A stretch of 64,000 bases of DNA from a virus (lineage: Duplodnaviria > Heunggongvirae > Uroviricota > Caudoviricetes). The notes beneath the pieces were generated by a model that worked only from the letters and a program-made list of their open reading frames with translations, was not told the DNA's origin and searched no databases. Shown one piece after another: positions 39,295 to 64,000 of the stretch. The stretch spans positions 1 to 64,000 of the IMG/VR virus record IMGVR_UViG_3300035670_000056; one strand, given 5' to 3'. The translations under genes were made by a program, and so were the position numbers. How positions within the stretch are numbered: the stretch's first letter is position 1; every line of letters begins with the position of its first letter.

Positions 39295-39954
39295 TTATAA
39301 TCCGTATCTAGCTCTTGTAATATTATAATTTTGTAATATTTCCGTAACACTTAATACTCTGTTGTATATTTGTACGACCCCGATAGTACCCGGTAAAAGT
39401 TGACTTCCATCACCTCCTGTACTAATACCTAAATTGTAATCATCACTAGTTTTATACATTGTTGTTGTGTATACTAACACACCGTTTATATATACTGTTG
39501 CGTTGTTTGGTGAATTGCTAGAAAACGTCAATGTAATGAATCTCCAATTTCCATTAGAAATAGATATACCTGAATTTCTATTAGTTCCAGTACCCCAATC
39601 GTAAAGTAGTAAATTGCCTCCATAATTATATATCCCGTAGTTTAAAGCCTTAACTACTATACCTTGATAAACTACAGATGTAGAAGTAGTCTTCATCCAC
39701 ACATTTACTGTTCCTGAAGTTAATTTCAGAGAGGCGCCATTACCACAATTTACATAATCATCAGTACCATCAAACACAATGCTTCCTTGATTAGCTGCGT
39801 TAAATGTGGGGCCATTAATAAGAGTGCCTGTATTGTTATTACCGCTTAAATCTCGCCAAGTGGTACCTGTGCCAGGATAACTAAGTTTATCAGCAGCATC
39901 TAGTGCTAATACCACTCCGCTTGTTACAATTTTTGGACCTCTAGCTATTCCCAT
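39295..39954 (-). CDS. LamG/ConA-like jelly-roll protein, triplet A member 3
   Basis: PKIVTSGVVLALDAADKLSY...WRDLSGNNN...GPTFNAANQGSIVFDGTDDY and a C-terminal LQNYNITRARYG. Confidence 0.55.
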   Translation of the reverse strand: MGIARGPKIVTSGVVLALDAADKLSYPGTGTTWRDLSGNNNTGTLINGPTFNAANQGSIVFDGTDDYVNCGNGASLKLTSGTVNVWMKTTSTSVVYQGIVVKALNYGIYNYGGNLLLYDWGTGTNRNSGISISNGNWRFITLTFSSNSPNNATVYINGVLVYTTTMYKTSDDYNLGISTGGDGSQLLPGTIGVVQIYNRVLSVTEILQNYNITRARYGL

Positions 39955-39963
39955 ATAGTATAA

Positions 39964-40665
39964 TTAGTATCCAAATCTGTTTTTAGTTGCGTTATAGTTT
40001 TGTAACACCTCCGAAGCGGATAATGCTCTGTTGTAAAATGAAGTCATATATATATTGCCACTTATATATTCTCCAGCTGGAACGCTGCCTTGATCTGCTC
40101 CAATCAACACATCATTTGTTGTATAATTTATAGTTGCAACAATATTTGATGAATTGATTAGTGAGGTATTGATGTAACTAATCATATTCGATCCATTATA
40201 AGTTGATACTATATTATATATTACGCCCGTTGAAAATGAGTATGATGTTGCTGTTTGATGGTATGTCGATGCCGATCCAATACTAAATTCCAATGTATTA
40301 TTACTATTTATTCTTAATAACCACGACAAAAATGGACTTGACCACGGAGGACCATTTTGTGCTTTTGAGATTATACAATTATAAGCTGAAAACCCATTGA
40401 ATTTTACCCACGCGCTTATTGTTAAATTTTGTGCGTAAAAAATAGAACTATTCGGTATAGTAGCATAATCATTTGTGCCATCAAATAAAATACTACCCAT
40501 ATTAGCAGCACTAAATGTAGGTCCGTTGTTTAGTGTGGCTATATTGTTATTACCACTTAAATCACGCCAACTGGTGCCACTGCCTTTATAACTAAGTTTA
40601 TCAGCTGCATCTAGTGATAAAACACATCCGCTTGTAATTATTTTGGGTCCTGATATACCAGACAT
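39964..40665 (-). CDS. LamG/ConA-like protein, triplet A member 2
   Basis: Same N- and C-terminal conserved blocks. Confidence 0.55.
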   Translation of the reverse strand: MSGISGPKIITSGCVLSLDAADKLSYKGSGTSWRDLSGNNNIATLNNGPTFSAANMGSILFDGTNDYATIPNSSIFYAQNLTISAWVKFNGFSAYNCIISKAQNGPPWSSPFLSWLLRINSNNTLEFSIGSASTYHQTATSYSFSTGVIYNIVSTYNGSNMISYINTSLINSSNIVATINYTTNDVLIGADQGSVPAGEYISGNIYMTSFYNRALSASEVLQNYNATKNRFGY

Positions 40666-40676
40666 ATATACTATAA

Positions 40677-41363
40677 TTATCTACCAAATCTACTTTTAGT
40701 TGCGTTATAATTTTGCAACACTTCATTTACAGATAATGATCTATTATTAATTAATATACTTGACATTCTACCATTTAAATACCAAAGAGCGCCACTACTT
40801 CTTATAAATCCAACATATAAATTACTTTGTTGAGATACAGCATAATTTACATTTCCAGATGCAACCGAAACACCATTTAGATAAACAGTTATTACGCCAC
40901 TATTACGAACCGCAGCAAAATTATACCAATTTCCTACAGTAACTAACCCAGCAGCACTTGTAAATGCATCGCCTACAGTACTACCAACTGTAACTAAAGA
41001 AACAGAACCATCAGAATTACCAGCTATTTGAACTCTGTTTGTATTTGAACCAGTGCTTCCATTAAAAAAAAGGCCATAACCATTTGCACCACCAAGTGAA
41101 GATGGAGTAAACCAAAATTGTATTGTAAAATCCGCATTATAATTCCAAACCAAAGAACTAATTAGTAAATAATCATCTGTGCCATCAAATACTATCCCCC
41201 CCATATTAGCAGCGCTAAATGTGGGTCCGTTAATTAATGAAAAATTATTATTATTACCACTTAAATCTCGCCACGTTGTGCCTGTGCGAGGATAGCTAAG
41301 ACGTTCAGCTGCATCTAGTGCCAATACCAAACCGCTTGTGACTATTCGTGGGCTATAGTACAT
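40677..41363 (-). CDS. LamG/ConA-like protein, triplet A member 1
   Basis: Same conserved blocks. Confidence 0.55.
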   Translation of the reverse strand: MYYSPRIVTSGLVLALDAAERLSYPRTGTTWRDLSGNNNNFSLINGPTFSAANMGGIVFDGTDDYLLISSLVWNYNADFTIQFWFTPSSLGGANGYGLFFNGSTGSNTNRVQIAGNSDGSVSLVTVGSTVGDAFTSAAGLVTVGNWYNFAAVRNSGVITVYLNGVSVASGNVNYAVSQQSNLYVGFIRSSGALWYLNGRMSSILINNRSLSVNEVLQNYNATKSRFGR

Positions 41364-41366
41364 AAA

Positions 41367-41615: not shown

Positions 41616-41619
41616 AATA

Positions 41620-41868
41620 TTATAGTGTATCTGTTGGATATTCCCAGGCGTTTCTGAATGTTCTATCTGTTGGTATATCTTCTACTGGCACAATTTTATA
41701 TGATGTTCCTGCGGGTACATCTTTTGCAGCAATTCGTTCAATAAATTCATCATATGTTTCATTGGAATTTTTTGCACTTATGGATGGAATTATTATAGCA
41801 ACTCCACCATTTTCCGTTGGGTATATTATTCGTTTTTCACTCATACTATTATATATAGTTAATTTCAA
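41620..41868 (-). CDS. Small conserved structural-region protein (82 aa)
   Basis: ORF track. Confidence 0.4.
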   Translation of the reverse strand: MKLTIYNSMSEKRIIYPTENGGVAIIIPSISAKNSNETYDEFIERIAAKDVPAGTSYKIVPVEDIPTDRTFRNAWEYPTDTL

Positions 41869-42926
41869 TTTCTAAATACAATTACAGAAACTACAGATTT
41901 ATCTGTGGGGATTCCGTTTTCTATGCAATATATCTGTACTGTAGAAGTTGTATGTGAATTTACATTTACACCAAAATTACTATTTGCTGCTTCATTACTC
42001 GTAGACGCTACTACAGTTGGAATTGTAGAAAAAGTTGAAGAAAAATTTACCCGATAATTACCAGTGTCTAAATCTGTTATGCTGCTTACATTATAACTAT
42101 CTCTTATAGCTACAGTACCTGTTCCATTAAAGTTGACCCAAGCTTTTGCTAATTGTGCGCCATTTATACCACCTGTTCCTATTGCAAATCCTGTTGCAGT
42201 ACTATTAACCACTACACTACTATTTGCATCACCAGCACTATCTAAAAATTGTGTTGTTTGTGGCGTAAAATTACTGGTATATCTAGCTATACCTTTAGTA
42301 ATTCTTAATTCATCTATATAACCCGCATAAGCATTTCCAGATAAAGTATCACCTATTATAAGTCCCGCAGTTCTGTTTAAATTAACAGTATATGCCGCAG
42401 AATAACCCTGTATACCATTAACAAATATTTTTAAGACTCCTGATGTTCTTACCCACGCCAAATGAACCCAAGAATTTAATGTAATTGGTACAGTTGAAAC
42501 ATATTGTGTGCCATCATAAAAATAAGGAAAATTGCTGCTATTTATTATCGCTATCCAAGGAATCGCATCGGCTGTTGCTCTAGCATCCAATACTGCTGCG
42601 GTGGATGCAACTGTTTTATATACCCAAGTTTCAATCGTAAAATCGTCAGTACCAAAGGAAAAATCTGGCGTAGGAGATGCTATAGTCAATCTATCTCCTG
42701 TACCGTCAAGATATAAGCTAGTACCACCAAATTTACTTTGAGCTGTACTTAATTGAGCATTACCGACCGCAGTAACCGTAGCATTATTTTTGCTATTATC
42801 TGTCATAGTGGTACTACCATTTGTACCATTAAAATGCATCAATAAGCTGGTTTGTGGATAATAAACATCACCTGTTGTTGTTCCAACAGGTACTGCGATT
42901 TGTGATAAAAAAGGTTTGGTTGCCAT
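41865..42926 (-). CDS. LamG-domain fibre protein (353 aa)
   Basis: AYAGYIDELRITKGIARYTSNFTP motif shared with the large fibre proteins. Confidence 0.55.
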   Translation of the reverse strand: MATKPFLSQIAVPVGTTTGDVYYPQTSLLMHFNGTNGSTTMTDNSKNNATVTAVGNAQLSTAQSKFGGTSLYLDGTGDRLTIASPTPDFSFGTDDFTIETWVYKTVASTAAVLDARATADAIPWIAIINSSNFPYFYDGTQYVSTVPITLNSWVHLAWVRTSGVLKIFVNGIQGYSAAYTVNLNRTAGLIIGDTLSGNAYAGYIDELRITKGIARYTSNFTPQTTQFLDSAGDANSSVVVNSTATGFAIGTGGINGAQLAKAWVNFNGTGTVAIRDSYNVSSITDLDTGNYRVNFSSTFSTIPTVVASTSNEAANSNFGVNVNSHTTSTVQIYCIENGIPTDKSVVSVIVFRN

Positions 42927-42932
42927 ATATTT

Positions 42933-45900
42933 TTATAATTCAGATGAAACAGAAACAGTTCCTAAAATTTCTGCAGGTGTGCCAGTAGCTCCCTGGGATG
43001 GTGACAGTGTATTAATATTAAAAATTATACCGGCCCTATTTGCAGTAATTGTAACATTAGAAGTAGATGTAGTTGAAGTTCCAACACCAAACAAATTAAT
43101 TGAAATTGAATTTCCTGTCGATAATGTAACTGTTTGATTATCTGTCCTCATCCAAGTAGATAATGGCAATTTTATGTATGCGGATGTAGTACCAAATTCG
43201 CTACCTGTCCCTGTAGATCCATTTATAGATACAAAATATCTTTGACATAATAATAGTTCCAAACCAAACAATCGTCTTTCAAATGGTGTTGCTAATGGAC
43301 CTGCTTCTAATTGAACATTGTCTATAGTCCAAGTACCAGATGTTTGAGCACCAACACTAAATACAATTTCAACGCCTGTAATAGCCGCAGATGGAATAAA
43401 TATTTGTGCGCTATATCTAGTCAATGTACTAGTTACAGTAAATGTACCCGTAGCTATTTGTGTTCTAGTTGGACTTGCCAATGTACCAAATGTATCCGCA
43501 GTATTAGCATAATAAGCTGTCCAAGTTACACTGGTCAATAAACTATTAGCCAAATCTACACCAAGTGTTGCAGTAGATCCTGCCAAATCAATACTATTAG
43601 CCGCTTCTATTCTTTGTCCAAATCCAATCGCAGTAACACTCGCCGCACCTGTAAATCTATAAGCAAATTGATTATTACCAGTACCAGCAACTCGTTGTCC
43701 AGTAACATTAGCCCCAGTACAATATGCATACCATCTATCCACTGTATAAGCTAATGCAGCCGCAGCAGTAATTGTTTGAGCTGCACCAGCATTTCTTTGG
43801 TCAACTGCCATAGCACCATTAATAATACGATTAATATTGCTAGAATTTAAATTAAAACCAGCGGTACCAATACTAACACCTGTAGCAGTACTATTTACTA
43901 CCAACGCTTTACCTACATCACCACCTGTATTAGAAAATGCAGTGGTAGATGGCGTAAAATTACCGGTATATCTTGCATAACCCTTAGTAATTCTTAATTC
44001 ATCTATATAACCTTGGAAAAAATAAGTAAGACTTGCATATACACCTATTAATAATGCTGCTGCTCCCGCTGGTAATGTAGCTGTTGATGTAAATGTAGAA
44101 ATTTGCGTGCCATTTTGAAATGTTCTAAAAGTATTTCCTTGTCGAGTTACTGCATAATGTGTCCAACTATTTGTTATTATAGAACCCATACTTACTGCAC
44201 TAGCAACATTCCAACTAGCTCCATCTGCACTTGAATAGAAATAAACATTACCAGTGTCACTCCACCCAATCATATATGGAGGATAACTACTATTATTTCT
44301 AGAAAGTACTGGTTTGTATATAGTACTTACTGTTCTGTATTCCCAATATTCAATCGTAAAATCTCCAGCACCAAAATCAAAATCTGTACTATTTGTTACA
44401 GAAACATAATCATTTGTACCGTCAAGAAATACACTAGCACCGCCAAATTTGCTTTGCGCAGTACTAATAAACGCACCATTAACTGAAGTAACAGCCAAGT
44501 TATTTTTGCTATTGTCTGTTATAGTGGTACTACCATTTACACCATCAAAGTGTAACAATGCAGCAACTTGTGGATAATAAGCATCACCAGTTGTTGTGCC
44601 TGTCAATACTATATTGGCTAAATTAACATCACTACTATTTGTAGCAGTTACCAAATATCTAGCATTAATTTTACTACCCGAAGGATAACTTTCAGTAAAT
44701 GTAACACTACTAGCACTTACAGTATAATCAGTTGTGGGAGTTTGTATAATACCATTTACACTCAACAACACATCACTTGGGGAAACTACACTTCGGCTTA
44801 AAGTATATAAATTACTACCACTGATATATCGCATCGTCTGATTTACAAGAGCAGTACCACCATTTAAAGCATAACTAGCCGTAACAGCTCTACGTGACCA
44901 ACTAGCAGTTATAGGATACAAACTACCTGTTCTTAATGTACTACCACCGCCACCAGAAGCATTTAAAGCATAACTTGCGGTCTTAGATAATAATGAATAA
45001 CTACTAGTTACACTCACACTAGTATAATCCAATACATTCACATACACTCTATTCACACTACCACTTAAAGACCCACTGCCAATTAAAGGCTGGTTTGGAT
45101 AAGTTAATCTGGTCAATTTAAGCGAAGTATCACTCAATTTCTGCACACCATAATCCACATATTTATCATCAATGCCGCCCACCAAACCCACATACTTGGT
45201 TAATATTTGATTTCTTGAATTTGGAAATGGTGAATTTCGAGGGGTAAAATTACTGGTATATCTTGCAACACCTTTCGTTACACGAACTTCATCAATATAT
45301 CCTGTTACTCCATTACCAGTTAAAGATGGATAATCTCCGATAGCACCAGGACCTTGAGGACAATTACGAGTAACAGTTCCAGATGAAATTAAATTACCAT
45401 TTGCAAAAATTCTAACAGTTCCACTTTGTCTTGTCGCTGTTAAATGCGTCCAAGTATTTGCAACTACTGTATAAGTAACTTGCAAATCATACGCTACTGC
45501 TCTAGCACCAATATAAACTTGGGTTTGATTAAATCCAAAAGTCGTACCCCCTGTAACATCTGTGGCGTAAATTAAATTTTCACCATTACGAATTGCTGTA
45601 GGATATATCCAAGCTTCAATAGTATAATCATCTGTACCAAATCCAAAACTAGAATTGCTTGTAGTTGTTAAGTAATCTCCTGTACCATCAAATAATCCAC
45701 TGCCTCCACCAAATTTATAAATATTATTATCTACCGTAACATTGCCGCTTGATGTTATCTTAAAATTGTTTCTACTATTATCAATAAATCTTCCCGCTGC
45801 ATTTAAACTATCAAAGTGACATAATAAGCTACAACTGTTATAATATTGATCCAATGTTGCAGCATCCCATTCTTCCACAACGCTTACATCCCACTTGTTG

Positions 45901-47660: not shown

Positions 47661-47661
47661 A

Positions 47662-48054
47662 TTATTCCGAAATTAATTTCCAAGATTGTGTTGTTTCATC
47701 CCAATTATATATATTTCCGTCATTTGGATATGGTATGGGTGATTCCCAATTACAGGTTTGTTCGTTTAATATCCAACTTGGATATGGTTGCGGTGGTATG
47801 AATGCATCTAAGTTCATATCATATTTAAATCCAATTCCAGCAAAATTTTTTCTAAATGCTTTAGATTGATCGCCATCTGGTAAATTTGTTATTGAATTAT
47901 AATATATACCCCCTTTAGTATTATAACTAGTTCGTTTACATATCTGTCCCTTTTTAATTGTATAATAATTTTCCCAATCAAAAAGTCTTTCGTCTTTACC
48001 GACAATCACTTCGGTAACTACATAATCTTCATTTAAAAATGCGTAATGTGCCAT
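47662..48054 (-). CDS. Trp/Tyr-rich small protein (130 aa)
   Basis: ORF track. Confidence 0.4.
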   Translation of the reverse strand: MAHYAFLNEDYVVTEVIVGKDERLFDWENYYTIKKGQICKRTSYNTKGGIYYNSITNLPDGDQSKAFRKNFAGIGFKYDMNLDAFIPPQPYPSWILNEQTCNWESPIPYPNDGNIYNWDETTQSWKLISE

Positions 48055-48058
48055 ATTT

Positions 48059-51724: not shown

Positions 51725-51725
51725 A

Positions 51726-55560: not shown

Positions 55561-55605
55561 ATCATATAAATATCACAATTATACACATTTATCAAATTAA
55601 GATAT

Positions 55606-56310
55606 TTATCTTCCAAATCTACCTTTTACAGCATTATAATTTTGCAATATTTCAGTAGCTGTTAATACTCTATTATATAGTCTTACAATTGCTATATTAC
55701 CATTGAAATAACTAGGTGCCCAAGTAGCTGCTCCTATTTCTAGAGCAGTCGATGTATTAGGCAAAGTTGATGGTAAACTATTAACTCTACTACTATATGA
55801 AGTTTCTCTTCCATTAACAAAAGTTCTTAATTGAGCACTTGGTGTAGCCAAGCCAATTACTTGATTCCACGATCCCATAGTTACAACTCCTGTAACCGTT
55901 TCTAAATAAACGTCTGATCCCGGAGAACTCCAGTCAAAATATAATTGGCCCGTACTAATCGTTATAAATCTTGGATTATCAGGTGTAGCACCAGAATCAC
56001 TTGTTCCTCTATTTAAAAATGTGCCCGTTGTTGCAACAGTAGGTTTAATCCACGCTTCATATGTAGCACCTGTAGGAGTATTTAAAATAGCATTATAAGC
56101 AACACTTACATAATCATTGGTACCATCAAATACTATACTACCTTGATTACTCGCATTAAATGTAGGTCCATTAGTTAATGTACTATTATTGTTAACGCCA
56201 CTCAAATCCCTCCAAGTAGTACCAGTGCCACGATAACTATTTTTGTTAGCCGCATCTAATGCTAATATCAATCCATTTGTAACTATTTTTGGCCCTCTAG
56301 ATAATGACAT
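55606..56310 (-). CDS. LamG/ConA-like protein, triplet B member 3
   Basis: PKIVTNGLILALDAANKNSYRGTGTTWRDLSG...LQNYNAVKGRFG. Confidence 0.55.
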   Translation of the reverse strand: MSLSRGPKIVTNGLILALDAANKNSYRGTGTTWRDLSGVNNNSTLTNGPTFNASNQGSIVFDGTNDYVSVAYNAILNTPTGATYEAWIKPTVATTGTFLNRGTSDSGATPDNPRFITISTGQLYFDWSSPGSDVYLETVTGVVTMGSWNQVIGLATPSAQLRTFVNGRETSYSSRVNSLPSTLPNTSTALEIGAATWAPSYFNGNIAIVRLYNRVLTATEILQNYNAVKGRFGR

Positions 56311-56321
56311 ATATGTTATAA

Positions 56322-57035
56322 TTATCTATTAAATCTACTTTTAGTAGCATTATAGTTTTGAAGTACTTCTGTTGCAGTTAATGATCTGTTATATATTTGT
56401 GTATTAGCTATAGAACCCGCCCAATAATTTCCGGTTGGTCTTCTTGCAATTTGAACTGTATCTGTAGTTGTAGCATAAACGATTGTTCCCAATGTACCTG
56501 TACCGTTACTTAAAACGCCATCTATATATATTGATATTGTATTACTTCCAAGAGTTGATGTATTAGTTGTATAAATCGATACTATATTTCTCCAAGTATT
56601 ATTATTAACTGTTGCTGTACTCGTTCTGTTATAAGTATTAAAACCATCAGATCCTTTTGTAGTACCAGAAACTGTTCCTGCAGAGTCAAATTGAAACAGC
56701 CAACCAGCAGTAGAAGCAGTTGCACCTTTAGAAATAATAACACCACCTATAGAAGAAGTAGTTTTTATCCATAAACTCACAGTAAACGTGACATTTGCAA
56801 ATCGAAAATCTGTTCCAGTATTAGCCACATTAACATAATCATTTGTGCCATCAAATACAATACTTCCTTGATTACCAGCGCTAAATGTAGGTCCGTTGGT
56901 TAATGTGCCATTATTGCCATTTCCAGTTAAATCATTCCAAGTGGTACCTGATCCACGATAACTATTTTTATTAGCCGCATCCAAACACAAAACCAATCCG
57001 CTTTCAATTATATCTGGTCCAGTTTTTCCTGACAT
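56322..57035 (-). CDS. LamG/ConA-like protein, triplet B member 2
   Basis: Same conserved blocks. Confidence 0.55.
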   Translation of the reverse strand: MSGKTGPDIIESGLVLCLDAANKNSYRGSGTTWNDLTGNGNNGTLTNGPTFSAGNQGSIVFDGTNDYVNVANTGTDFRFANVTFTVSLWIKTTSSIGGVIISKGATASTAGWLFQFDSAGTVSGTTKGSDGFNTYNRTSTATVNNNTWRNIVSIYTTNTSTLGSNTISIYIDGVLSNGTGTLGTIVYATTTDTVQIARRPTGNYWAGSIANTQIYNRSLTATEVLQNYNATKSRFNR

Positions 57036-57046
57036 ATATATTATAA

Positions 57047-57727
57047 TTATAATGCAAATCTACTTTTAGTGGCATTATAGTTTTGAAGTATTTCGGTGGC
57101 AGTTAAAACTCTATTATAAATTAAAACTGAAGAAATTCTTCCGTTAAAAGGCCACTGAGATAAATTATTTTCATTACCTATGATACCATTAAATGGAGAA
57201 GATGTCATAGCGCTAAGAGTGAAAGGAGAACCTACTTGAAATCCATTAACATATAAAATAGTAGAAAATGTAGATGAATTGTATGTTACAGCTATTTGTA
57301 TCCAAGTATTAGTAGATATAACGTTAGTGACTTCTGCATTTACTGCTCCACCAGCATTAAAATATGTCAAATAACCAGCTACTCTATTCACTGTTAATAC
57401 CCAACCTGCGCCTGTAAGATTATTTGCATCTCTTGTTCCACATATTCCTGCTCTACTAGTAGTCGTGGGATAAATAAATGCACAAATTGTTTTTGAGCCC
57501 ACACCTGATATTTGTGTGGGAAAAGAACTAACATAATCATTGGTACCATCAAATACTATACTTCCTTGATTACCAGCGCTAAATGTAGGACCATTGGTTA
57601 ATGTACCATTGTTGTTATTACCGCTTAAATCGGTCCAAGTGGTACCAGTGCCACGATAACTGTTTTTGTTAGCAGCATCCAAACACAATACCAATCCATT
57701 TGATACAATTCTTGGTCCGTAATACAT
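57047..57727 (-). CDS. LamG/ConA-like protein, triplet B member 1
   Basis: Same conserved blocks. Confidence 0.55.
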   Translation of the reverse strand: MYYGPRIVSNGLVLCLDAANKNSYRGTGTTWTDLSGNNNNGTLTNGPTFSAGNQGSIVFDGTNDYVSSFPTQISGVGSKTICAFIYPTTTSRAGICGTRDANNLTGAGWVLTVNRVAGYLTYFNAGGAVNAEVTNVISTNTWIQIAVTYNSSTFSTILYVNGFQVGSPFTLSAMTSSPFNGIIGNENNLSQWPFNGRISSVLIYNRVLTATEILQNYNATKSRFAL

Positions 57728-57731
57728 AAAC

Positions 57732-58109
57732 TCAAGATTCCAATTTGGTATATTTATCTTTTACTGCAAGACACGCATCAAGATACACTTGCAATGCTTC
57801 GTTGTCATTTTTTACGATTGCATCTAAATAATTTGCCATTGGTGGATATGCATTTTTTCTTAGGTCAGATATGGTTCTTACAACTACTTCTTCATTTATT
57901 GTTAATCCCCATTGTTGACAATATGTAAAATCATATCCATCATAACCAGTAAAAGGTTCAAATGCAGAATAATTTGTTTTTGATAATACCAAGAAACTGG
58001 AACAATCTGGCGTTTGTGCAATTATTACAACATCATCGACTTGTTTTCTTTCTTCTGGTTTACCGAATAATAATTCGAAATTTTGAGATGGTAATTTATA
58101 AAGTTTCAT
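57732..58109 (-). CDS. Small structural-region protein (125 aa)
   Basis: ORF track. Confidence 0.4.
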   Translation of the reverse strand: MKLYKLPSQNFELLFGKPEERKQVDDVVIIAQTPDCSSFLVLSKTNYSAFEPFTGYDGYDFTYCQQWGLTINEEVVVRTISDLRKNAYPPMANYLDAIVKNDNEALQVYLDACLAVKDKYTKLES

Positions 58110-58110
58110 A

Positions 58111-58719
58111 TTATTGTATTAGTTTTGGTTCGTTTATGTTGTTTAACTTCAATGCATCAACAATATCTTTTTGTTCCAACAATATTGTTTCTTTTGGTAC
58201 TAACCCTACAAGTTTTAAAGATTCAAGTGTTTGTGGATTGCTCATTGCGTTTAACAATTTGGCTGGGGATGGTCTACCATTGGCAATAATTTCTGCTTGT
58301 ATTTCCCGTCCGATTGTTACAGTAAATTCGTTATTAGCATTGGCTTCAAACATTTGATCATCTGTATAACCAGGTATTCTGGTGGGTTCAACTATTGTAT
58401 ATAGTTCTGTTATTAGATTTTCTAAAATCTTTATTTCTTGACGGTTTAATTCAAATGCATGTTTTTGATCATCAAGATGTGATTCAAGTTCTAATATTTC
58501 TGCTTCTAAGTTTAAAATTACGTGGGGTAATGCTGGTAATTCTTTCAAATGTTTTAGTTCTGCTAATTTGGCTTTATATTTTAAATCCGCAACTTGTTCC
58601 AAAACAGCTGCTCTTTTTCTACCCACAAGAAAACCTTTTAATGTTTTTAACTTTTCCCAAGGGGTACTGCCTATAACTTGATAACGATAATTAAACTCCG
58701 AATTTAGATTTGATGCCAT
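58111..58719 (-). CDS. Coiled-coil protein (202 aa); possible assembly or chaperone role
   Basis: Heptad-rich LEQVADLKYKAKLAELKHLKE and similar segments. Confidence 0.4.
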   Translation of the reverse strand: MASNLNSEFNYRYQVIGSTPWEKLKTLKGFLVGRKRAAVLEQVADLKYKAKLAELKHLKELPALPHVILNLEAEILELESHLDDQKHAFELNRQEIKILENLITELYTIVEPTRIPGYTDDQMFEANANNEFTVTIGREIQAEIIANGRPSPAKLLNAMSNPQTLESLKLVGLVPKETILLEQKDIVDALKLNNINEPKLIQ

Positions 58720-58741
58720 ATGTTTGTTTAATATATATAGT

Positions 58742-59600
58742 TTATGTAGTTGAATAACCAGCAGCAGCTAACCAATATCTAGCAGTGCCAACTCCTAATG
58801 TGTCATTAGCAACTACACCTGTGTTGCTTACTAAATTTACAATAGATACTGCAGCGTTAGTATAACCATAACCAAATATAGCTTTATCAGTACCATATCC
58901 AGCCGCAGCTAAAGTATGTCTAGCAGTGCCTACACCAGTTGTATCTGTAGCAACTACACCTGTATTACTTACCAGATTAGTTATGGAAACATTTCCTGTA
59001 GTATAACCATAACCAAATATCGCTTTATTATTACCATAACCAGCCGCAGCTAAAGCTCGTCTAGCAGTACCTACCCCAGTTGTATCCGTTGCAACCACAC
59101 CTGTGTTACTTACCAAATTTGTCATAGATACAACTGCGCCTGTTGTGCCATAACCAAATATTGCTTTATCAGTACCATATCCTGCTGCAGCTAATTGTGA
59201 TCTAGCAGTGCCTACGCCAGTTGTGTCAGTTGCAACTACACCTGTGTTGCTTACTAAATTAGTCATAGACACATTCACACCAGTGCTCCCATAACCAAAT
59301 ATAGCTTTATCAGTACCATAACCAGCCGCAGCTAAAGTATCTCTAGCAGTGCCTACACCAGTTGTGTCATTAGCAACTACACCTGTATTACTTACTAAAT
59401 TTGTAATAGATACAACGGCAGAAGTAAAACCATAACCAAATATAGCTTTATCAGTACCATATCCAGTCGCAGCTAAAGTATGTCTAGCAGAACCAACGCC
59501 TGTAACATCATTCGCAACTACACCTGTGTTGTTTACTAAATTTGTAATAGATACTGCAGCACTAGTATAACCGTAACCAAATATAGCTTTGGTTGTATTA
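58742..59600. repeat. About 141-bp tandem repeats encoding the AIFGYG units
   Basis: Recurrent ccataaccaaatatagctttatcagtaccatatcc...gcagc units. A second array lies at about 62818-63690. Confidence 0.65.
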
Positions 59601-60781
59601 TTTGAAGTGGGTATTAAATAACTAGCTGATAAAGCATTTCTCGCATAACTGCTAGTAACACTAACCTTTGTATAATCAAGCACATTCACATACACTCTAC
59701 TAACACTACCACTCAATGATCCACTACCAACAATAGGTTGATTTGGATATGTAAGTCTTGTTAGTTTAAGTGAACTATCACTCAACTTCTGCACACCATA
59801 GTCTACATATTTATCATCAATACCACCAACCAATCCCACATACTTTGTAAGCACTTGATTTCTTGAATTTGGAAATGGTGCATTTGGCGGTGTAAAATTA
59901 CCGGTGTATCTGGCTACGCCTTTTGTTATACGGAGTTCATCCATATAACCAGCAAAATTTAAAGTATTAGTTTTGCTCGATCCAACATAAATTGCGGTTG
60001 AAGTATAATTTGTACTATCACTTACTGTTGATCCAACTTGCGTTCCATTAATGAATATTCTATTATTGCCAGACTGTCTGGTCCAGACTACATAGTTCCA
60101 ACTATTTAATGTTAATGTTCCAGAAGGCGCAATCAATTCTGTTCCGCCTTTCCACAAATTTAATTGATTATTATAACTATATAATGTCCATCCGCCAACT
60201 GAACTATATACATTGTCGCCTACTATTACTTTATACGCACCAACAGATGATACCGTTTGATATATCCATAGTTCAACTGTTAAATCATTTGTGCCAAATG
60301 TAAGCACCGATGTGGTGGGTGTAACTAAATAATCACCTGTTCCATCAAAATTAGCACTCGCGCCTCCAAATTTATATTGTGAAGTACTTAATCCAACATT
60401 GCCGCTACTAGTAATTGCTAAATTATTTCTACTACTATCTATAAATCTGCCAGCTGAATTTATAGTGTCAAAATGACACAACAAACTACAACTATTATAA
60501 TATTGATCCAAAGTTGCCGCATCCCATTCTTCAACCACATTTACATTCCACTTGTTGCTACTCAAACTTAAACCTGTAATAGTATTTGTACTACCCGAGG
60601 TTACATTGGTCCACAATGTTTGATTAGCAATACTGCCAGTTTGAACTGATCCACCACCGCCTCCACCTCCACTTGCATTCAAAGCGAATGAAGCGGTAAC
60701 AGCGTAACTGGATGTACCAAGAAATAATGATCCTGTTGAAATTAAACTGGGTGATACTTTTGTTTTTCCTAATGCAGGCAT
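58742..60781 (-). CDS. Fibre protein with LamG domain and six or more ~47-aa AIFGYG tandem repeats (679 aa)
   Basis: KAIFGYGYT..VS.TNLVSNTGVVATDTTGVGTAR..LAAAGYGTD repeats in the C-terminal half. Confidence 0.6.
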   Translation of the reverse strand: MPALGKTKVSPSLISTGSLFLGTSSYAVTASFALNASGGGGGGGSVQTGSIANQTLWTNVTSGSTNTITGLSLSSNKWNVNVVEEWDAATLDQYYNSCSLLCHFDTINSAGRFIDSSRNNLAITSSGNVGLSTSQYKFGGASANFDGTGDYLVTPTTSVLTFGTNDLTVELWIYQTVSSVGAYKVIVGDNVYSSVGGWTLYSYNNQLNLWKGGTELIAPSGTLTLNSWNYVVWTRQSGNNRIFINGTQVGSTVSDSTNYTSTAIYVGSSKTNTLNFAGYMDELRITKGVARYTGNFTPPNAPFPNSRNQVLTKYVGLVGGIDDKYVDYGVQKLSDSSLKLTRLTYPNQPIVGSGSLSGSVSRVYVNVLDYTKVSVTSSYARNALSASYLIPTSNNTTKAIFGYGYTSAAVSITNLVNNTGVVANDVTGVGSARHTLAATGYGTDKAIFGYGFTSAVVSITNLVSNTGVVANDTTGVGTARDTLAAAGYGTDKAIFGYGSTGVNVSMTNLVSNTGVVATDTTGVGTARSQLAAAGYGTDKAIFGYGTTGAVVSMTNLVSNTGVVATDTTGVGTARRALAAAGYGNNKAIFGYGYTTGNVSITNLVSNTGVVATDTTGVGTARHTLAAAGYGTDKAIFGYGYTNAAVSIVNLVSNTGVVANDTLGVGTARYWLAAAGYSTT

Positions 60782-60842
60782 ACTTTATAAATAGTTAATG
60801 TCGTTTTATTACCACATTCAAATAATTTGTCATCTTAGATTA

Positions 60843-62804
60843 TTAGACCTTTGTAATTGTTATAGAATTATAATAACCAGTAGTAGGAGCCGTTCCTATA
60901 TCCGGAGTTACAAAAAATGTGCTAGGAGGATTATTACCTGCGTGTGCCGCCTGTATGCCAGTAGTGTCGTTTGACCAATGAAAAAGTCCAAATCTATCTG
61001 ATATATCGGTTACACGATATAAACATTCAAATAATATACCCCAACGTGCCGGATCGGGCACTCCCGATCTATAACCGTTGCCTACAGGCAACGCAGTATT
61101 ATTATTTTTACACACCGATATCATATTCCATGAATCTGCTGTAGCTCTTACCTGATATACCAAACGGAATATTCCGGTAGTTGAATGTCGCCAATGATAC
61201 GCTTCAATACCACCCACAGGCGATGCCGTGGCATTAATTGTTATATTTTGTAAAATTATAGCAGTATTAAACGGCACAATCACTATATTTGCGTTAGGCA
61301 GTGTATATGTTACTGTACTGGCCAAATGACCACATTCTGTGATATTTTTTAAAGCATAACTAGCAGTGACAGCATAACTAGAAGTTACGGCATAACTAGC
61401 TGTTACAGCATTACTTATGCTACCAGATATTGAAACATTATCATAATCCAATACATTTACATATACTCTGCTTACACTACCACTCAATGATCCACTACCA
61501 ACTATAGGTTGATTTGGATATGTAAGCCTTGTCAATTTAAGCGAACTGTTGCTTAACTTTTGTACACCATAATCCACATACTTATCATCTATACCACCCA
61601 CCAAACCTACATATCTTGTAAGCACTTGATTACGTGAATTTGGAAATGGTGCAGAAGGCGGTGTAAAATTAGCGGTATATCTAGCTACACCTTTGGTAAT
61701 TCTAAATTCATCTATATAACCATTATAATTATTTTCTCCTGGGGTATGACCTCTAGTACCAATTATTGGCCTATTATCACCACATAAATAGTTATTAGTA
61801 TCGGTGTATGTTGATCCAACCTGTATGCCATTAACAAATAATTTGGTGCTTGATCCGGAACGAGTTAATGCTACGTGATACCATTGTCCGGTATTTAAAG
61901 TTGCCCCAGTTATTCTATCTGCGTTATTTACAAAATACCTAATTTGACCATTAAAAAAATAAATACAAGGATATAAACCATCTGTAGATAAAGGTCTACA
62001 ATCAAATATAATTTTTATATTGCTTACATCTGCAAAACTTACGGAGTTCATCCAAAATTCAACTGTAAAGTCGCCTGTATTAAATGCAAATAATGCATTA
62101 TTTTGCAGATTTAAGTAATCACCGTTTCCATCAAATAATACACTTGCTCCTCCAAATTTATATTGTGACGTGCTTAGTTTAACATCACCACTTGATGTAA
62201 TCGCAAAATTGTTTCTACTATTGTCAATAAATCTTCCCGCAGGATTCACACTATCAAAATGGCACAACAAGCTACAACTGTTATAATATTGATCAAGTGT
62301 TGCAGCATCCCATTCTTCTACAACACTTACATCCCACTTGTTGCTACTTAAGCTTAATCCAGTTATGGTGTTTGTGCTGCCTGAAGTTACATTTGTCCAA
62401 ACTGTTTGTTTCGCAATGCTACCTGTTTGTACGGTAGTACCACCATTTAAGAATCTTACATCAATTTCATCGCCGTCATCATATGGTTGATAAAAATTAA
62501 GTGTAGAACCAGTAACTGTATAACTTGAACTATAATTTTGTACAACGCCATTTACAGATACTAACAAATGTTCTGGATTAGTTACGTTTTGTATTAATGC
62601 ATACTGAGTTGTATTACTACCACTCACAACAATATATTGTCCAACCACAGGCGAACCTGTAATATAACTAATTGAACCTCCACTTGCATTCAAAGCATAA
62701 CTCGCGGTCAATGCTCTTCTTGAATAACTACTAGTGCCACTTAATGATCCTGTTATAGATCCATTTGGCTTAATCATTGATTGTCGTAATCTTGTAAATG
62801 GCAT
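60843..62804 (-). CDS. Mosaic fibre protein (653 aa) with a unique C-terminal domain
   Basis: Anchor motif, WDVSVVEEWD module, LamG with GYIDEFRITKG, and the LTRYVGLVGGIDDKYVDYGVQKLSN module. Confidence 0.6.
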   Translation of the reverse strand: MPFTRLRQSMIKPNGSITGSLSGTSSYSRRALTASYALNASGGSISYITGSPVVGQYIVVSGSNTTQYALIQNVTNPEHLLVSVNGVVQNYSSSYTVTGSTLNFYQPYDDGDEIDVRFLNGGTTVQTGSIAKQTVWTNVTSGSTNTITGLSLSSNKWDVSVVEEWDAATLDQYYNSCSLLCHFDSVNPAGRFIDNSRNNFAITSSGDVKLSTSQYKFGGASVLFDGNGDYLNLQNNALFAFNTGDFTVEFWMNSVSFADVSNIKIIFDCRPLSTDGLYPCIYFFNGQIRYFVNNADRITGATLNTGQWYHVALTRSGSSTKLFVNGIQVGSTYTDTNNYLCGDNRPIIGTRGHTPGENNYNGYIDEFRITKGVARYTANFTPPSAPFPNSRNQVLTRYVGLVGGIDDKYVDYGVQKLSNSSLKLTRLTYPNQPIVGSGSLSGSVSRVYVNVLDYDNVSISGSISNAVTASYAVTSSYAVTASYALKNITECGHLASTVTYTLPNANIVIVPFNTAIILQNITINATASPVGGIEAYHWRHSTTGIFRLVYQVRATADSWNMISVCKNNNTALPVGNGYRSGVPDPARWGILFECLYRVTDISDRFGLFHWSNDTTGIQAAHAGNNPPSTFFVTPDIGTAPTTGYYNSITITKV

Positions 62805-62817
62805 ATTATTTTATATT

Positions 62818-64000
62818 TTATGTCGTCGAATATCCAGCAGCAGCTAAACGCTCTCTAGCGGTACCTATACCAGTTGTATCATTTGCAACTACTCCAACGT
62901 TTGATACCAAATTAACCATTGATACATTTGTACTAGTAAAACCATATCCAAATATAGCCTTATCAGTTCCATATCCGGCAGCAGCTAAAGAATATCTTGC
63001 AGTACCTACTCCTGTTGTATCTGTAGCAACCACACCTGTGTTGCTTACTAAATTTGTAATAGATACTTGTGTACTTGTATAACCATAACCAAATATAGCT
63101 TTGTCACCACCATATCCAGCAGCGGCTAAAATTCTTCTAGCAGTACCTACGCCTGTTGTATCTGTTGCAACCACTCCAGTATTACTTACTAAGTTTGTCA
63201 TAGATACATTTGTACCAGTAGTACCATAACCAAATATAGCTTTATCAACGCCATATCCAGCAGCTGCTAAAGAATATCTTGCAGTACCTACGCCAGTTGT
63301 ATCTGTAGCAACCACACCTGTGTTGCTTACTAAATTTGTCATTGATACTCCAGCAGAAGTAAAACCATAACCAAATATAGCTTTATCGGTTCCATATCTG
63401 GCCGCAGCTAATGCTTGTCTTGCAGTACCTACACCTGTTGTGTCAGTAGCAACAACGCCTGTGTTGCTTACTAAGTTTGTCATAGATACAACTGCGCCAG
63501 TAGTACCATAACCAAATATAGCTTTATCACTGCTATATCCAGCAGCGGCTATGTTAGACCTAGCAGTACCTATACCGGTAACATCATTAGCAACAATTCC
63601 AATATTTGATACTAAATTTGTCATAGATACATTTACACCAGTATAACCATAACCAAATATAGCTTTTGTTGTGTTATTTGAAGCAGGTAGTAAATAACTC
63701 GCGGTCAATGCTCTTCTTGAAAAACTGCTGCTAGTAGAAGAACCACCACCAAAATATCTGATATCAACATTTGAACCTGAAAGCGCATTTTCTGTTAAAG
63801 TCAAAGTGGATCCTGAAACTGTATAACTACCTGATCTGGATTGAACCAACCCATCCAATATTACCAATATTTGATCCTTGTTTGCCACGCTTTGTGTCAA
63901 TTGAAATTGACTTACAGATGCAGTTAATACAAATGTTTGCGCCAAAGATAACGCTGGGGTAGAACTGGTACCACTAGTTCCACTGCTACCAGGAGATCCA
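62818..64000 (-). CDS. AIFGYG-repeat fibre protein, 5'-partial (continues beyond the window end)
   Basis: The track's start at 63945 is a TTG. The frame stays open to nt 64000 and encodes ...GSSGTSTTPALSLAQTF, which matches a module in 48059..50881. Confidence 0.55.
   Translation of the reverse strand, partial: GSPGSSGTSGTSSTPALSLAQTFVLTASVSQFQLTQSVANKDQILVILDGLVQSRSGSYTVSGSTLTLTENALSGSNVDIRYFGGGSSTSSSFSRRALTASYLLPASNNTTKAIFGYGYTGVNVSMTNLVSNIGIVANDVTGIGTARSNIAAAGYSSDKAIFGYGTTGAVVSMTNLVSNTGVVATDTTGVGTARQALAAARYGTDKAIFGYGFTSAGVSMTNLVSNTGVVATDTTGVGTARYSLAAAGYGVDKAIFGYGTTGTNVSMTNLVSNTGVVATDTTGVGTARRILAAAGYGGDKAIFGYGYTSTQVSITNLVSNTGVVATDTTGVGTARYSLAAAGYGTDKAIFGYGFTSTNVSMVNLVSNVGVVANDTTGIGTARERLAAAGYSTT

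What the first reader, a model, noticed from the sequence alone, without database searches (positions are those of the whole stretch)
39295..64000. A 25-kb array of mosaic fibre genes built from about 5 shuffled modules, with whole fibre units concatenated in frame
Seven large proteins of 350-1575 aa reuse the same building blocks in different numbers and orders. One is an N-terminal anchor motif (FTGSFSGTGSYARRALTASY.LGG). One is a collagen-like G-S/T-S triplet block. One is LQTGSIAKQT...WDVSVVEEWDAATLDQYYNSCSLLCHFDS. One is a LamG domain ending in GYIDELRITKGVARYT(S/G)NFTP. One is LTKYVGLVGGIDDKYVDYGVQKLSD...RVYVNVLDYT.VSVTSSYA. The anchor motif recurs inside the 1575-aa and 1158-aa proteins, so each appears to be 2-3 complete fibre units fused head to tail. 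Nucleotide identity between copies is high, so recombination between them is likely. This looks like a modular host-recognition cassette that diversifies by recombination.
Basis: seen in the sequence. Interest (0 to 1): 0.7.

Follow-up and report, generated by a model that had tools for sequence, protein, structure and literature searches.

The report
Phage fibre genes with swappable lectin cassettes
An uncultivated large phage devotes at least 25 kb (probably about 40 kb) to a family of fibre-like proteins built from repeated units, each a conserved frame around a lectin-type (LamG) core; related phages show that the cores, the fibre tips and whole units have been exchanged by recombination, a new variant of the well-known mosaic design of phage host-recognition genes.

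Summary
The repeated modules are real. One ORF (375 aa) is cut by the window end.

The main result is sharper than "shuffled modules". Each repeating unit is a conserved frame that encloses a hypervariable LamG core.
- The frame is a 65-aa C module plus the first LamG strands on one side, and the last LamG strand plus a 69-aa E module on the other.
- In the window, frames are 87-96% identical where cores are 26-47%.

Related IMG/VR phages share an 85-93% nt backbone and show four kinds of change.
- Core replacement: flanks up to 100% nt, core about 40%.
- The same unit sitting in different paralogs.
- Tip-domain swaps.
- Unit gain or loss, and a gene fusion or deletion between paralogs.

The six small LamG genes, in two triplets, follow the same design.

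The "anchor" motif is a junction motif found at almost every module boundary. Identity between copies is 64-89% nt, not high, but conversion-like exact tracts of 41-62 nt occur.

The fibre role rests on one tip domain. It is 61% identical to the cyanophage S-2L tail fibre.

Verdict: a real, new variant of a known kind. Interest is moderate.

The parts
62818..64000 (-). 3' part of a longer fibre gene cut by the window end. Reads collagen-like run, DUF4183/T7N-like module, junction motif, then 6 x 47-aa repeats.
   Evidence: The frame is open to base 63999. Modules. Orthologs are 1382 and 1958 aa. Tandem period 141 nt, 5.9 copies.
60843..62804 (-). 653-aa fibre: N-terminus, T7N-like module, C-LamG-E unit (61428-62432), two junction motifs, unique C-terminal domain (60846-61349).
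   Evidence: Against the L004 ortholog, nt identity is 95-100% in most of the first 400 nt and 80-98% from there to nt 660. It falls to 33-51% over gene nt 660-1050 (window about 61755-62145, the LamG core). It returns to 93-98% over nt 1095-1335, then falls to about 40% where the tip differs.
58742..60781 (-). 679-aa fibre: divergent N-terminus, C-LamG-E unit (59657-60646), junction motif, 6 x 47-aa repeats (58760-59599).
   Evidence: An identical public protein exists (P0001). AF2 gives pLDDT above 90 for most of the LamG (aa 100-300) and below 50 for C and E. Its core is 80% identical to a unit in L060 whose flanks are only 60% identical.
57732..58719 (-). Two small non-fibre genes (202 and 125 aa) between fibre genes. 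Conserved in relatives; function unknown.
   Evidence: No Pfam hit and only weak PHROG hits. 85-89% nt to L001, L004 and L061.
55606..57727 (-). Triplet B of small LamG genes (226, 237 and 234 aa), each with conserved termini and a variable core.
   Evidence: LamG module HMM; PHROGs. Across 24 such genes, termini have median 70% identity and cores 19%. The cores of s234 and s237 are 90% and 84% identical to genes in the other triplet locus of L061 and L057.
52084..55560 (-). 1158-aa fibre: N-terminus, collagen-like run, junction, X module, junction, unit 1 (53779-54882), junction, collagen-like run, junction, T7N-like module, unit 2 (52183-53205), junction. There is no tip domain.
   Evidence: The ortholog has three units in L004/L057. 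In L061 it is fused to the Gly-rich tip.
50897..52055 (-). Two accessory genes (109 and 275 aa) after the tip-less fibre. Missing in L057 and L061, present in L056 (88% aa).
48059..50881 (-). 940-aa fibre: N-terminus, collagen-like run, T7N-like module, unit (49199-50224), partial junction, an about 85-aa segment, Gly_rich_2 domain (48062-48901).
   Evidence: Pfam Gly_rich_2 74.5 bits against a cut-off of 24.3; Laminin_G_3 82.3 bits.
47662..48054 (-). 130-aa gene of phrog_7759 (unknown function) between two fibre genes.
   Evidence: Not homologous to the assembly-like genes that follow the related tip in S-2L, B23 and S-CRM01.
42933..47660 (-). 1575-aa fibre: N-terminus, collagen-like run, unit 1 (46338-47375), junction, collagen-like run, unit 2 (45009-45989), two junctions, T7N-like module, third LamG (43929-44519), tail-fibre tip domain (42936-43895).
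   Evidence: Orthologs in L057 and L061 lack unit 2. The tip matches phrog_4492 (tail fiber, E 5.8e-33) and is 61% identical to the S-2L tail fibre.
41865..42926 (-). 353-aa protein: end of a C module, LamG, and its own C-terminal domain.
   Evidence: It shares a 62-nt exact run with unit 2 of the 1158-aa gene, although the surrounding alignment is only 67% identical.
39295..41363 (-). Triplet A of small LamG genes (228, 233 and 219 aa).
   Evidence: The s219 core is 89% identical to a gene in triplet B of L004.
33341..36556 (-). Outside the given interval: a 1071-aa collagen-like fibre with more than 10 junction motifs and two T7N-like modules.
   Evidence: Pfam Collagen E 3.8e-42; PHROG tail-fibre families.

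Best explanation
These genes encode a family of virion fibre or adhesin proteins of an uncultivated large phage.

BUILD OF EACH PROTEIN
- A shared N-terminus that probably docks to the virion.
- Spacer segments: G-S/T-S collagen-like runs or a small DUF4183/T7N-like domain.
- One to three C-LamG-E units.
- A distal tip that differs between genes.
- A short junction motif (SSYAxxALTASYxLxG) that separates the modules.

LIKELY FUNCTION
The LamG domains most likely act as lectin knobs along the shaft. The tips most likely bind the specific receptor.

HOW THE LOCUS DIVERSIFIES
It diversifies by homologous recombination in the conserved parts. There are four outcomes.
- The about 130-aa LamG core is replaced as a cassette while its frame stays.
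- Whole units move between paralogs, or are gained and lost in frame.
- Tips are swapped.
- Paralogous genes are fused, with loss of the DNA between them.

The cores form discrete types drawn from a pool shared by related phages. The two triplets of small LamG genes follow the same design with a separate pool.

SHOWN VERSUS INFERRED
- Shown: the modular anatomy and the recombinant mosaics.
- Inferred: virion location, trimeric fibre structure, sugar binding and host-range effect.
For: ANATOMY
- Searches give the module map.

FRAME VERSUS CORE
- In the window, C and E are 87-96% identical among four units whose LamG domains are 42-47% identical.
- Over 123 units from the window, relatives and public proteins, the flanks form one cluster with median 64% identity.
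- The cores fall into 44 clusters at 60% identity, with median 27%.
- 235 pairs have flanks >= 90% and cores < 40% identical.
- Core identity is bimodal.
- C and E identities track each other (rho 0.64). Neither tracks the core (rho 0.05-0.08).

SHARP BREAKPOINTS
- The 653-aa gene against its L004 ortholog reads up to 100% nt identity, then 33-51% across the core, then 93-98%, then about 40% in the tip.
- The L001 '653' gene and the L004 '679' gene share 88-96% nt across most of one whole unit.

UNIT NUMBER, TIP SWAP AND FUSION
-.

INTRAGENOMIC CONVERSION-LIKE TRACTS
- Exact runs of 62, 60 and 41 nt occur in alignments that are 67-70% identical. They were reached in 0-1 of 20000 permutations.

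LECTIN FOLD
- AF2 gives pLDDT above 90 for most of the LamG.
- The top Foldseek matches are receptor-binding and carbohydrate-binding jelly rolls.

FIBRE ROLE
- The tip is 61% identical to the S-2L tail fibre, whose gene lies next to host specificity protein J.
- It is 49-55% identical to proteins of B3/B23 and S-CRM01; the S-CRM01 one is annotated tail fiber protein, the B3/B23 one hypothetical.
- PHROG tail-fibre families also match.

N-TERMINUS
- The N-termini are the best conserved parts between relatives, at 95-100% nt.
Against: - No virion protein, baseplate or tail gene lies in the window, so the link to the tail is indirect.
- Most PHROG hits run through the LamG domain only. They carry mixed labels: baseplate wedge, virion structural, unknown.
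- AF2 could not model the C and E modules (pLDDT below 50). It could not model the 47-aa repeats either (pLDDT 46). The fibre geometry is therefore unknown.
- G-S-S triplets lack proline, so a true collagen helix is unproven.
- Paralogs within the genome are old (dS 0.6-2). Recombination between them is occasional, not frequent.
- The host is unknown.
Confidence: 0.7

Rival explanations
1. The proteins are virion or particle surface lectins that are not the infection-determining tail fibres. Examples would be head fibres, whiskers or baseplate decorations that hold the phage on particles, mucus or non-host surfaces. In this reading the variation tracks environments rather than host receptors.
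For: - LamG-based PHROG hits are labelled baseplate wedge subunit or virion structural protein, not tail fibre.
- tblastn hits in T4-like cyanophages fall in giant structural proteins.
- Several proteins share one N-terminus, which would also fit decoration sites.
Against: - The tip of the 1575-aa protein is homologous to side tail fibres.
- Cassette-type variation with conserved docking ends is the pattern seen in receptor-binding proteins (PMC3157838).
- Gly_rich_2 and collagen-like modules are common in tail fibres.
Confidence: 0.2
2. The LamG cores differ because of fast point-mutational divergence under diversifying selection in place, without cassette exchange. The flanks are simply under purifying selection.
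For: - In the flanks dN/dS is about 0.1.
- dS is already 0.6-2, so purifying selection clearly acts there.
Against: - Orthologous genes that are 95-100% nt identical in the flanks have cores at chance-level identity, with abrupt edges.
- Core identity is bimodal, either below 40% or above 80%.
- The same core occurs in different paralogs and in different frames.
- The cores of small LamG genes move between two loci.
Confidence: 0.04
3. The long multi-unit ORFs are assembly artefacts caused by repeats, or by co-assembled strains.
For: - Exact repeats of up to 62 nt exist between units.
- They could confuse a short-read assembler.
Against: - The same multi-unit architectures occur in contigs from independent metagenomes: L001-L003, L004-L006 with L057-L059, and L061.
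- All units are intact and in frame.
- Unit 2 of the 1575-aa ORF has a unique core. Its flanks are only 82-89% identical to unit 1, so it is not a strain variant of the same site.
Confidence: 0.03
4. A diversity-generating retroelement or another targeted mutator creates the variation.
For: None found. This was considered only because phage receptor-binding proteins are classic DGR targets.
Against: - None of the window ORFs scanned matched a reverse-transcriptase family; not every ORF was scanned.
- The variation is whole-core replacement at about 27% identity, not substitutions at adenine-templated sites.
Confidence: 0.01

Closest known systems
gp38 adhesins and the distal tail-fibre locus of T-even phages (Trojet et al. 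2011, PMC3157838; Tetart et al. 1996 and 1998 as cited there)
   Same: - Conserved motifs form a structural frame around hypervariable segments.
- Exchanges occur in or next to the conserved motifs.
- There is an N-terminal attachment part and a C-terminal specificity part.
- Interchangeable segments are shared across related phages as a library.
- Duplication of a small domain expands the fibre.
   Different: - No sequence relation.
- Here the variable element is most of a about 200-aa LamG jelly roll, not short loops between glycine-rich motifs.
- The unit is repeated up to three times per protein, and there are nine LamG domains in large proteins within the window.
- The frame (C and E modules) is a separate conserved sequence outside the variable domain.
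Antireceptor genes of Streptococcus thermophilus phages, with the variable region VR2 and collagen-like repeats (Duplessis and Moineau 2001, as described in PMC5601072)
   Same: [quoted passage not shown]
- One variable region is proposed as the main host-range determinant.
   Different: - That system is a single gene of a small siphovirus with a different fold.
- There is no multigene family, no serial units, and no LamG.
LamG-bearing giant structural proteins of T4-like cyanophages (P-SSM3, P-SSM4, S-CAM8 and others)
   Same: - A Laminin_G_3 domain 37-43% identical to the window's.
- The same PHROG families match.
   Different: - Those proteins lack the C and E frame.
- The E module exists in only 77 of 1.84 billion representative clusters.
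- Among the 136 loci fetched, it occurs in only 12.
Tail fibres of freshwater Synechococcus phages S-2L (S2L_50), S-CRM01 (g18) and B3/B23 (gp21)
   Same: The C-terminal domain of the 1575-aa protein is 61%, 55% and 49% identical to theirs.
   Different: - In most other viral contigs this domain stands in an ORF that carries none of my other modules; the lengths listed run from 137 to 345 aa (82 of 90 cases).
- Here it caps a three-LamG fibre.
- The small gene that follows it in those phages has no homolog next to it here.
Multi-RBP jumbo phages with branched fibre sets (for example Klebsiella phages of the RaK2 / PhiK64-1 type; from my own knowledge, not checked here)
   Same: Many receptor-binding proteins are encoded in one long cluster. 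They have conserved docking ends and different distal domains.
   Different: Those carry enzymatic depolymerase domains, one per protein. Here the variable parts are non-enzymatic lectin-type domains in series, with cassette exchange inside a fixed frame.

Membership tests
Phage tail fibre / receptor-binding protein | Sequence homology to a protein established or annotated as a tail fibre | tested here: met
   Met for the tip of the 1575-aa protein only: phrog_4492 at E 5.8e-33 and 61% identity to S-2L S2L_50, whose gene lies beside host specificity protein J. Other proteins match tail-fibre PHROGs only through collagen-like or small modules.
Phage tail fibre / receptor-binding protein | Conserved proximal (docking) end with a variable distal end | tested here: met
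   N-termini are 95-100% nt identical between relatives, while cores and tips are replaced. Four of the proteins share the N-terminal 40 aa, and the 679-aa one has a divergent version.
Phage tail fibre / receptor-binding protein | Presence in the virion, attached to tail or baseplate, as a homotrimer | not testable with these tools
   No tail or baseplate gene lies in the window. Only monomer AF2 was available.
Laminin_G_3 / concanavalin A-like lectin-glucanase superfamily (PF13385) | Profile score above the curated cut-off | tested here: met
   57.6-170.7 bits against a cut-off of 27.6 in the seven proteins scanned that contain it: six of the large ORFs and the small gene s219.
Laminin_G_3 / concanavalin A-like lectin-glucanase superfamily (PF13385) | Jelly-roll beta-sandwich fold | tested here: met
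   AF2 gives pLDDT above 90 for most of aa 100-300. Foldseek matches neurotoxin HcN, NTNH and AbnA domain 4 at E of about 1e-9.
Laminin_G_3 / concanavalin A-like lectin-glucanase superfamily (PF13385) | Carbohydrate or receptor binding | not testable with these tools
   Inferred from the family only.
Collagen triple-helix repeat (PF01391) | G-X-Y repeats scoring above the cut-off | tested here: met
   51.8 and 34.7 bits against 27.2; 142.3 bits in the 1071-aa protein.
Collagen triple-helix repeat (PF01391) | Composition that supports a stable triple helix (Pro or charged residues at X/Y) | tested here: inconclusive
   X and Y are almost only S, T, A and N. Helix formation is unproven.
T7 tail fibre N-terminal domain (PF03906) / DUF4183 | Profile score above the curated cut-off | tested here: not met
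   22.9 bits against 25.2, and 19.2 or 16.1 bits against 25.1. Precomputed Pfam lists PF03906 for many public homologs. I treat this as a resemblance only.
Gly_rich_2 (PF21722) | Profile score above the cut-off | tested here: met
   74.5 bits against 24.3 in the C-terminus of the 940-aa protein.
Diversity-generating retroelement target | Reverse transcriptase plus template/variable repeat pair with adenine-specific differences | tested here: not met
   No reverse transcriptase among the window ORFs scanned. The variation is replacement of the whole core. The rest of the genome was not seen.
Silent-cassette antigenic variation (pilE/pilS type) | Unexpressed or separate donor copies whose sequence appears in the expressed gene | tested here: not met
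   The small LamG genes were tested as possible donors. Their best identity to any fibre-unit core is 27-39%.

The most novel reading that the evidence does not exclude
The C and E modules are two halves of one lineage-specific "socket" domain into which any LamG core can be inserted. A clade of uncultivated phages would then share a population-wide library of at least 44 LamG core types, plus a separate library for the small LamG genes. Recombination would slot these into standard frames, up to three in series on one fibre. That would give combinatorial lectin displays which reset host range faster than mutation could. It would be a natural plug-and-play receptor-binding scaffold, distinct from the loop-based gp38 design.
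Probability: 0.25. Interest if true: 0.7.

Novelty: new variant of a known kind. Interest (0 to 1): 0.5.

Why it matters
Mosaic receptor-binding genes are the main lever of phage host range, and they are the part that engineers try to reprogram.

This locus offers unusually clean natural boundaries.
- Frames reach up to 100% nt identity next to cores at chance-level identity.
- There are many core types.
- Units are arranged in series.

That gives a concrete map of where a LamG-type binding domain can be exchanged without breaking the fibre. It also shows how a large uncultivated phage can carry 15 lectin-type domains in 25 kb.

The frame modules C and E have no Pfam family and no solved relative, and they are rare in public data.

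If the tip homology to freshwater Synechococcus phages reflects the host, the system bears on cyanobacterial phage ecology.

Tried and rejected
- **Close phage relatives.** Megablast of the 1575-aa gene and of bases 1-24000 against 50,697 phage records gave no match.
- **Source contig.** Exact look-up of the 653-aa protein and of P0001 found nothing on record. The cluster look-up gave only "hypothetical protein" and a 115-kb JGI contig.
- **Host via prophages or MAGs.** The scan of 185,579 species genomes found only distant LamG domains at 24-43% identity. One 1.3-kb contig binned as Dolichospermum (P0068) is too short to trust.
- **Fold of the 6 x 47-aa repeats.** AF2 gave pLDDT 46. Foldseek found nothing at E <= 0.001. 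Propeller or solenoid remains open.
- **C and E modules.** AF2 gave pLDDT below 50. Profile searches of PDB sequences found nothing below E 0.6.
- **The 130-aa gene as a fibre-assembly chaperone.** It shows no similarity to the small genes that follow the related tip in S-CRM01, B23 or S-2L.
- **Small LamG genes as donor cassettes for the fibre units.** Rejected.
- **Promoter and terminator scan.** Counts equal those of shuffled sequence.
- **RNA genes.** No tRNA and no Rfam hit.
- **Literature.** Searches for a prior description of this family found none.
- **Recent duplication as the origin of unit 2 of the 1575-aa gene.** Rejected. The flanks have dS of 0.7-0.8 and the core is 26% identical.

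Full report
**1. Context**

The window has about 35% G+C.
- Bases 1-24 kb carry phage nucleic-acid genes.
  - An RnlA-like RNA ligase, an Rnl2-like ligase and an ATP DNA ligase.
  - dCMP deaminase, a Mom-family protein, and three homing-endonuclease-like ORFs.
- The ligase is closest to a 595-kb uncultured phage (47.6%), then to phages of Alphaproteobacteria.
- Megablast found no phage record.
- From 24.6 kb to the end, every sizeable ORF lies on the minus strand.
- Related IMG/VR contigs are 51-296 kb long. No relative exists in 185,579 species genomes.

This is therefore a large uncultivated virulent-type phage. Its host is unknown.

Yes, with corrections.
- The seven ORFs exist.
- I built HMMs from window copies and mapped them back. 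The resulting grammar is listed here.
  - **J**: a short junction motif, SSYAxxALTASYxLxG. It also occurs as a longer form, TGSxYPITASW..RAxTASYALNG.
  - **Col**: G-S/T-S triplet runs.
  - **T7N**: a about 68-aa module that falls just below the Pfam cut-offs for Phage_T7_tail and DUF4183.
  - **C**: 65 aa.
  - **LamG**: about 200 aa.
  - **E**: 69 aa.
  - **X**: a 75-aa module.
  - **Tips**: 6 x 47-aa repeats, Gly_rich_2, and three unrelated C-terminal domains.

The architectures are as follows.

| Protein | Architecture |
|---|---|
| 1575 aa | N/J - Col - [C-LamG-E] - J - Col - [C-LamG-E] - J - J - T7N - LamG - tip |
| 1158 aa | N/J - Col - J - X - J - [C-LamG-E] - J - Col - J - T7N - [C-LamG-E] - J |
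| 940 aa | N/J - Col - T7N - [C-LamG-E] - J - spacer - Gly-rich |
| 679 aa | N - [C-LamG-E] - J - 6 repeats |
| 653 aa | N/J - T7N - [C-LamG-E] - J - J - tip |
| 353 aa | LamG - tip |

Further points:
- The "375-aa" ORF is a fragment. Its frame is open to the last bases of the window. Its orthologs are 1382 and 1958 aa.
- Pfam confirms Laminin_G_3, Collagen and Gly_rich_2 above their cut-offs.
It marks joints, not the starts of whole fibres.
- What is specific to N-termini is the preceding about 16 residues (LKIxPxLISxGSFTGSF). Internal copies lack them.

**3. How similar are the copies?**

- Self-BLASTN gives 64-89% nt identity for module copies. The best is 89% over 349 nt between the two units of the 1575-aa gene.
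- In the conserved parts dN is 0.05-0.13 for the closest pairs. dS is 0.6-2.1, or saturated, across all pairs.
- The paralogs are therefore old and held by purifying selection. "High nucleotide identity" is an overstatement.
- Even so, 111 exact matches of at least 20 nt link paralogs.
- Runs of 62, 60 and 41 nt sit in alignments that are only 67-70% identical. Permutation within codon positions reached these lengths in 0, 0 and 1 of 20000 trials.
- These are conversion-like tracts. Some exchange between paralogs inside this genome has occurred.

**4. The central pattern: a conserved frame around a variable LamG core**

Within the window:
- C and E are 87-96% identical among four units: both full units of the 1575-aa protein, and those of the 679- and 653-aa proteins.
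- The LamG domains between them are 42-47% identical. With the conserved end strands removed, the cores are about 26-28% identical.
- The alignment shows conserved sequence through the first LamG strands (to FDGTxDYL). About 130 variable residues follow. Conservation returns from GYIDELRITKGVARYTSNFTP through E.

Over 123 units from the window, relatives and public proteins:
- The flanks form a single cluster, with median 64% identity.
- The cores fall into 44 clusters at 60% identity, with median 27%.
- 235 pairs have flanks at least 90% identical with cores below 40%.
- Intermediate core identities are rare, so the cores are discrete types.

C and E identities track each other (rho 0.64). 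Neither tracks the core (rho 0.05 and 0.08).

**5. Evidence that recombination makes the variants**

Relatives share an 85-93% nt backbone with the window.

- **Core replacement.** The 653-aa gene and its positional ortholog in L004 were compared along the gene.

| Gene position (nt) | nt identity | Region |
|---|---|---|
| 1-400 | 95-100% in most windows | N-terminus |
| 400-660 | 80-98% | up to the core |
| 660-1050 | 33-51% | LamG core |
| 1095-1335 | 93-98% | last LamG strand, E and J |
| 1425 onward | about 40% | tip |

- **Tip swap.** The L004 ortholog ends in the 6 x 47-aa repeats instead of the window's C-terminal domain.
- **Unit transfer between paralogs.** The L001 '653' gene and the L004 '679' gene are 88-96% nt identical over most of one whole unit. 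They are unrelated before and after it.
  - The 679-aa core is 80% identical to a unit in L060 whose flanks are 60% identical.
  - The L001 '679' core is 80% identical to the window's 940-aa core.
- **Unit number.**
  - The 1575-aa gene has an extra unit (about 45.0-46.3 kb) that is absent from its orthologs in L057 and L061 (1138 and 1122 aa).
  - The junction falls in the E module.
  - The 1158-aa ortholog has three units in L004/L057.
- **Fusion or deletion.** In L061 the 1158-aa ortholog runs straight into the E module and Gly-rich tip of the 940-aa ortholog. The 109-aa gene, the 275-aa gene and the 5' half of the 940-aa gene are missing. That is the product expected from recombination between paralogous units.

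Independent contigs from different metagenomes carry identical architectures: L001-L003, and L004-L006 with L057-L059. This argues against assembly artefacts.

**6. The small LamG genes**

- Two triplets (39295-41363 and 55606-57727) encode 219-237-aa LamG proteins.
- Across 24 such genes, termini have median 70% identity and cores 19%.
- Cores move between the two triplet loci in different phages.
  - s219 matches an L004 triplet-B gene at 89%.
  - s234 matches an L061 triplet-A gene at 90%.
  - s237 matches an L057 triplet-A gene at 84%.
- They do not share cores with the fibre units (best 27-39%). The two pools are separate. The idea that the small genes are donor cassettes is rejected.

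**7. What the parts are**

- **LamG.** AF2 models it with confidence, with pLDDT above 90 for most of aa 100-300 of the 679-aa protein. It matches receptor-binding and carbohydrate-binding jelly rolls.
- **C and E.**
  - Both come out below pLDDT 50.
  - They have no Pfam family and no PDB relative by profile.
  - The E profile hits only 77 of 1.84 billion representative clusters.
  - Among 136 fetched loci, C and E occur in 12.
  - The frame is therefore specific to a small phage clade.
- **47-aa repeats.** They are all-beta, but the fold is unresolved.
- **Tip of the 1575-aa protein.** This is the best functional anchor.
  - phrog_4492, tail fiber, E 5.8e-33.
  - 61% identity to S2L_50 of cyanophage S-2L, whose gene lies directly after host specificity protein J.
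  - 55% to S-CRM01 g18 and 49% to B3/B23 gp21.
  - All five phage records that match are freshwater Synechococcus phages.
  - 167 IMG/VR stretches carry the domain. Among the 90 ORFs with it in the loci held, 82 contain none of my other modules, and the lengths listed run from 137 to 345 aa.
  - It is therefore a mobile tip that this lineage has fused to a long LamG fibre.

**8. Mechanism proposed**

Shown by the evidence:
- The modular grammar.
- Conserved docking-type N-termini.
- Discrete LamG core types.
- Recombinant mosaics with sharp edges in conserved sequence.

Inferred:
- The proteins are trimeric virion fibres.
- LamG knobs bind surface glycans for reversible, multivalent attachment, and tips bind the specific receptor.
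- Exchanges shift host range.

Possible further readings:
- The C/E frame may be one split domain that carries the LamG as an insert.
- The tip-less 1158-aa fibre may use the downstream 109- and 275-aa proteins as separate distal pieces. In L056 the 275-aa gene again follows a tip-less two-unit fibre. In L061 the fibre is fused to a tip and those genes are gone.

**9. Comparison with known systems**

- The logic matches T-even gp38 and the distal fibre locus (PMC3157838). The shared features are:
  - conserved motifs forming a core around hypervariable segments;
  - exchange in or near the conserved motifs;
  - a shared library across phages.
- It also matches the S. thermophilus antireceptor, which has a variable region and collagen-like repeats (PMC5601072).
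- It is not a member of either family by sequence or fold.
- It differs in four ways.
  - The variable element is most of a LamG domain.
  - Units are arranged in series.
  - The family is large: nine LamG domains in large proteins plus six small LamG genes in 25 kb.
  - The frame modules have no described family.

**10. Verdict**

The feature is real and well supported. The anchor reading and the "high identity" argument do not.

- **Novelty:** a new variant of a known kind.
- **Interest:** 0.5. The principle is familiar to phage biologists. The clean cassette boundaries, the rare frame modules and the scale are useful and not previously described in the literature I could search.

Noticed in passing
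window 15570-16277 (minus strand): A Mom-family protein (PF25680, E 2.1e-43) sits alone on the minus strand among plus-strand genes. It suggests Mu-like DNA modification in this large phage.
   Followed up: no
window 24629-30514 (minus strand): Five tandem paralogous glycine-rich proteins of 344-418 aa; the two pairs that align are 71-74% nt identical. The Gly-rich region is of the same type as the C-terminus of the 940-aa fibre. Two of them start with the I(S/T)DLP tail-fibre-like N-terminus.
   Followed up: partly
window 33341-36556 (minus strand): A 1071-aa collagen-like fibre (Pfam Collagen E 3.8e-42) with more than 10 junction motifs and two T7N-like modules. It shows that the fibre cluster extends well beyond the given interval.
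   Followed up: partly
window 31965-33332 and 36581-38977 (minus strand): Two further repeat proteins with no family match. One is 455 aa and built from about 55-aa repeats (TRF period 162-168). The other is 798 aa with 19-aa GSQYYVNFYDASQNAVST-type repeats (period 57).
   Followed up: no
window 1714-2622, 11992-12723, 19748-20458: Three ORFs that PHROGs or Pfam class as homing endonucleases (one listed by PHROGs as homing and HNH endonuclease, one matching Pfam GIY-YIG). They are interspersed with RNA ligase and DNA ligase genes. One lies directly upstream of the Rnl2-like gene and overlaps its start.
   Followed up: no
window 42936-43895; loci L057-L136: The tail-fibre tip domain is very widespread. 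167 IMG/VR stretches encode relatives; the 80 kept are 58-95% identical. Most copies in the loci held stand in ORFs that carry none of my other modules. Among isolated phages it occurs only in freshwater Synechococcus phages, which is a hint about the host.
   Followed up: partly
window 50897-52055; L056 10001-10825: The 109- and 275-aa genes follow a fibre that has no tip, both here and in L056. They are absent where that fibre is fused to a tip (L061). They may be separately encoded distal fibre parts.
   Followed up: partly
L007 3836-8320; L064 12809-17257: More distant viral contigs encode proteins of about 1490 aa with six LamG domains in tandem and no C/E frame. They lie beside stand-alone Gly-rich genes; a stand-alone copy of the 1575-aa tip is seen in L064.
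   Followed up: no
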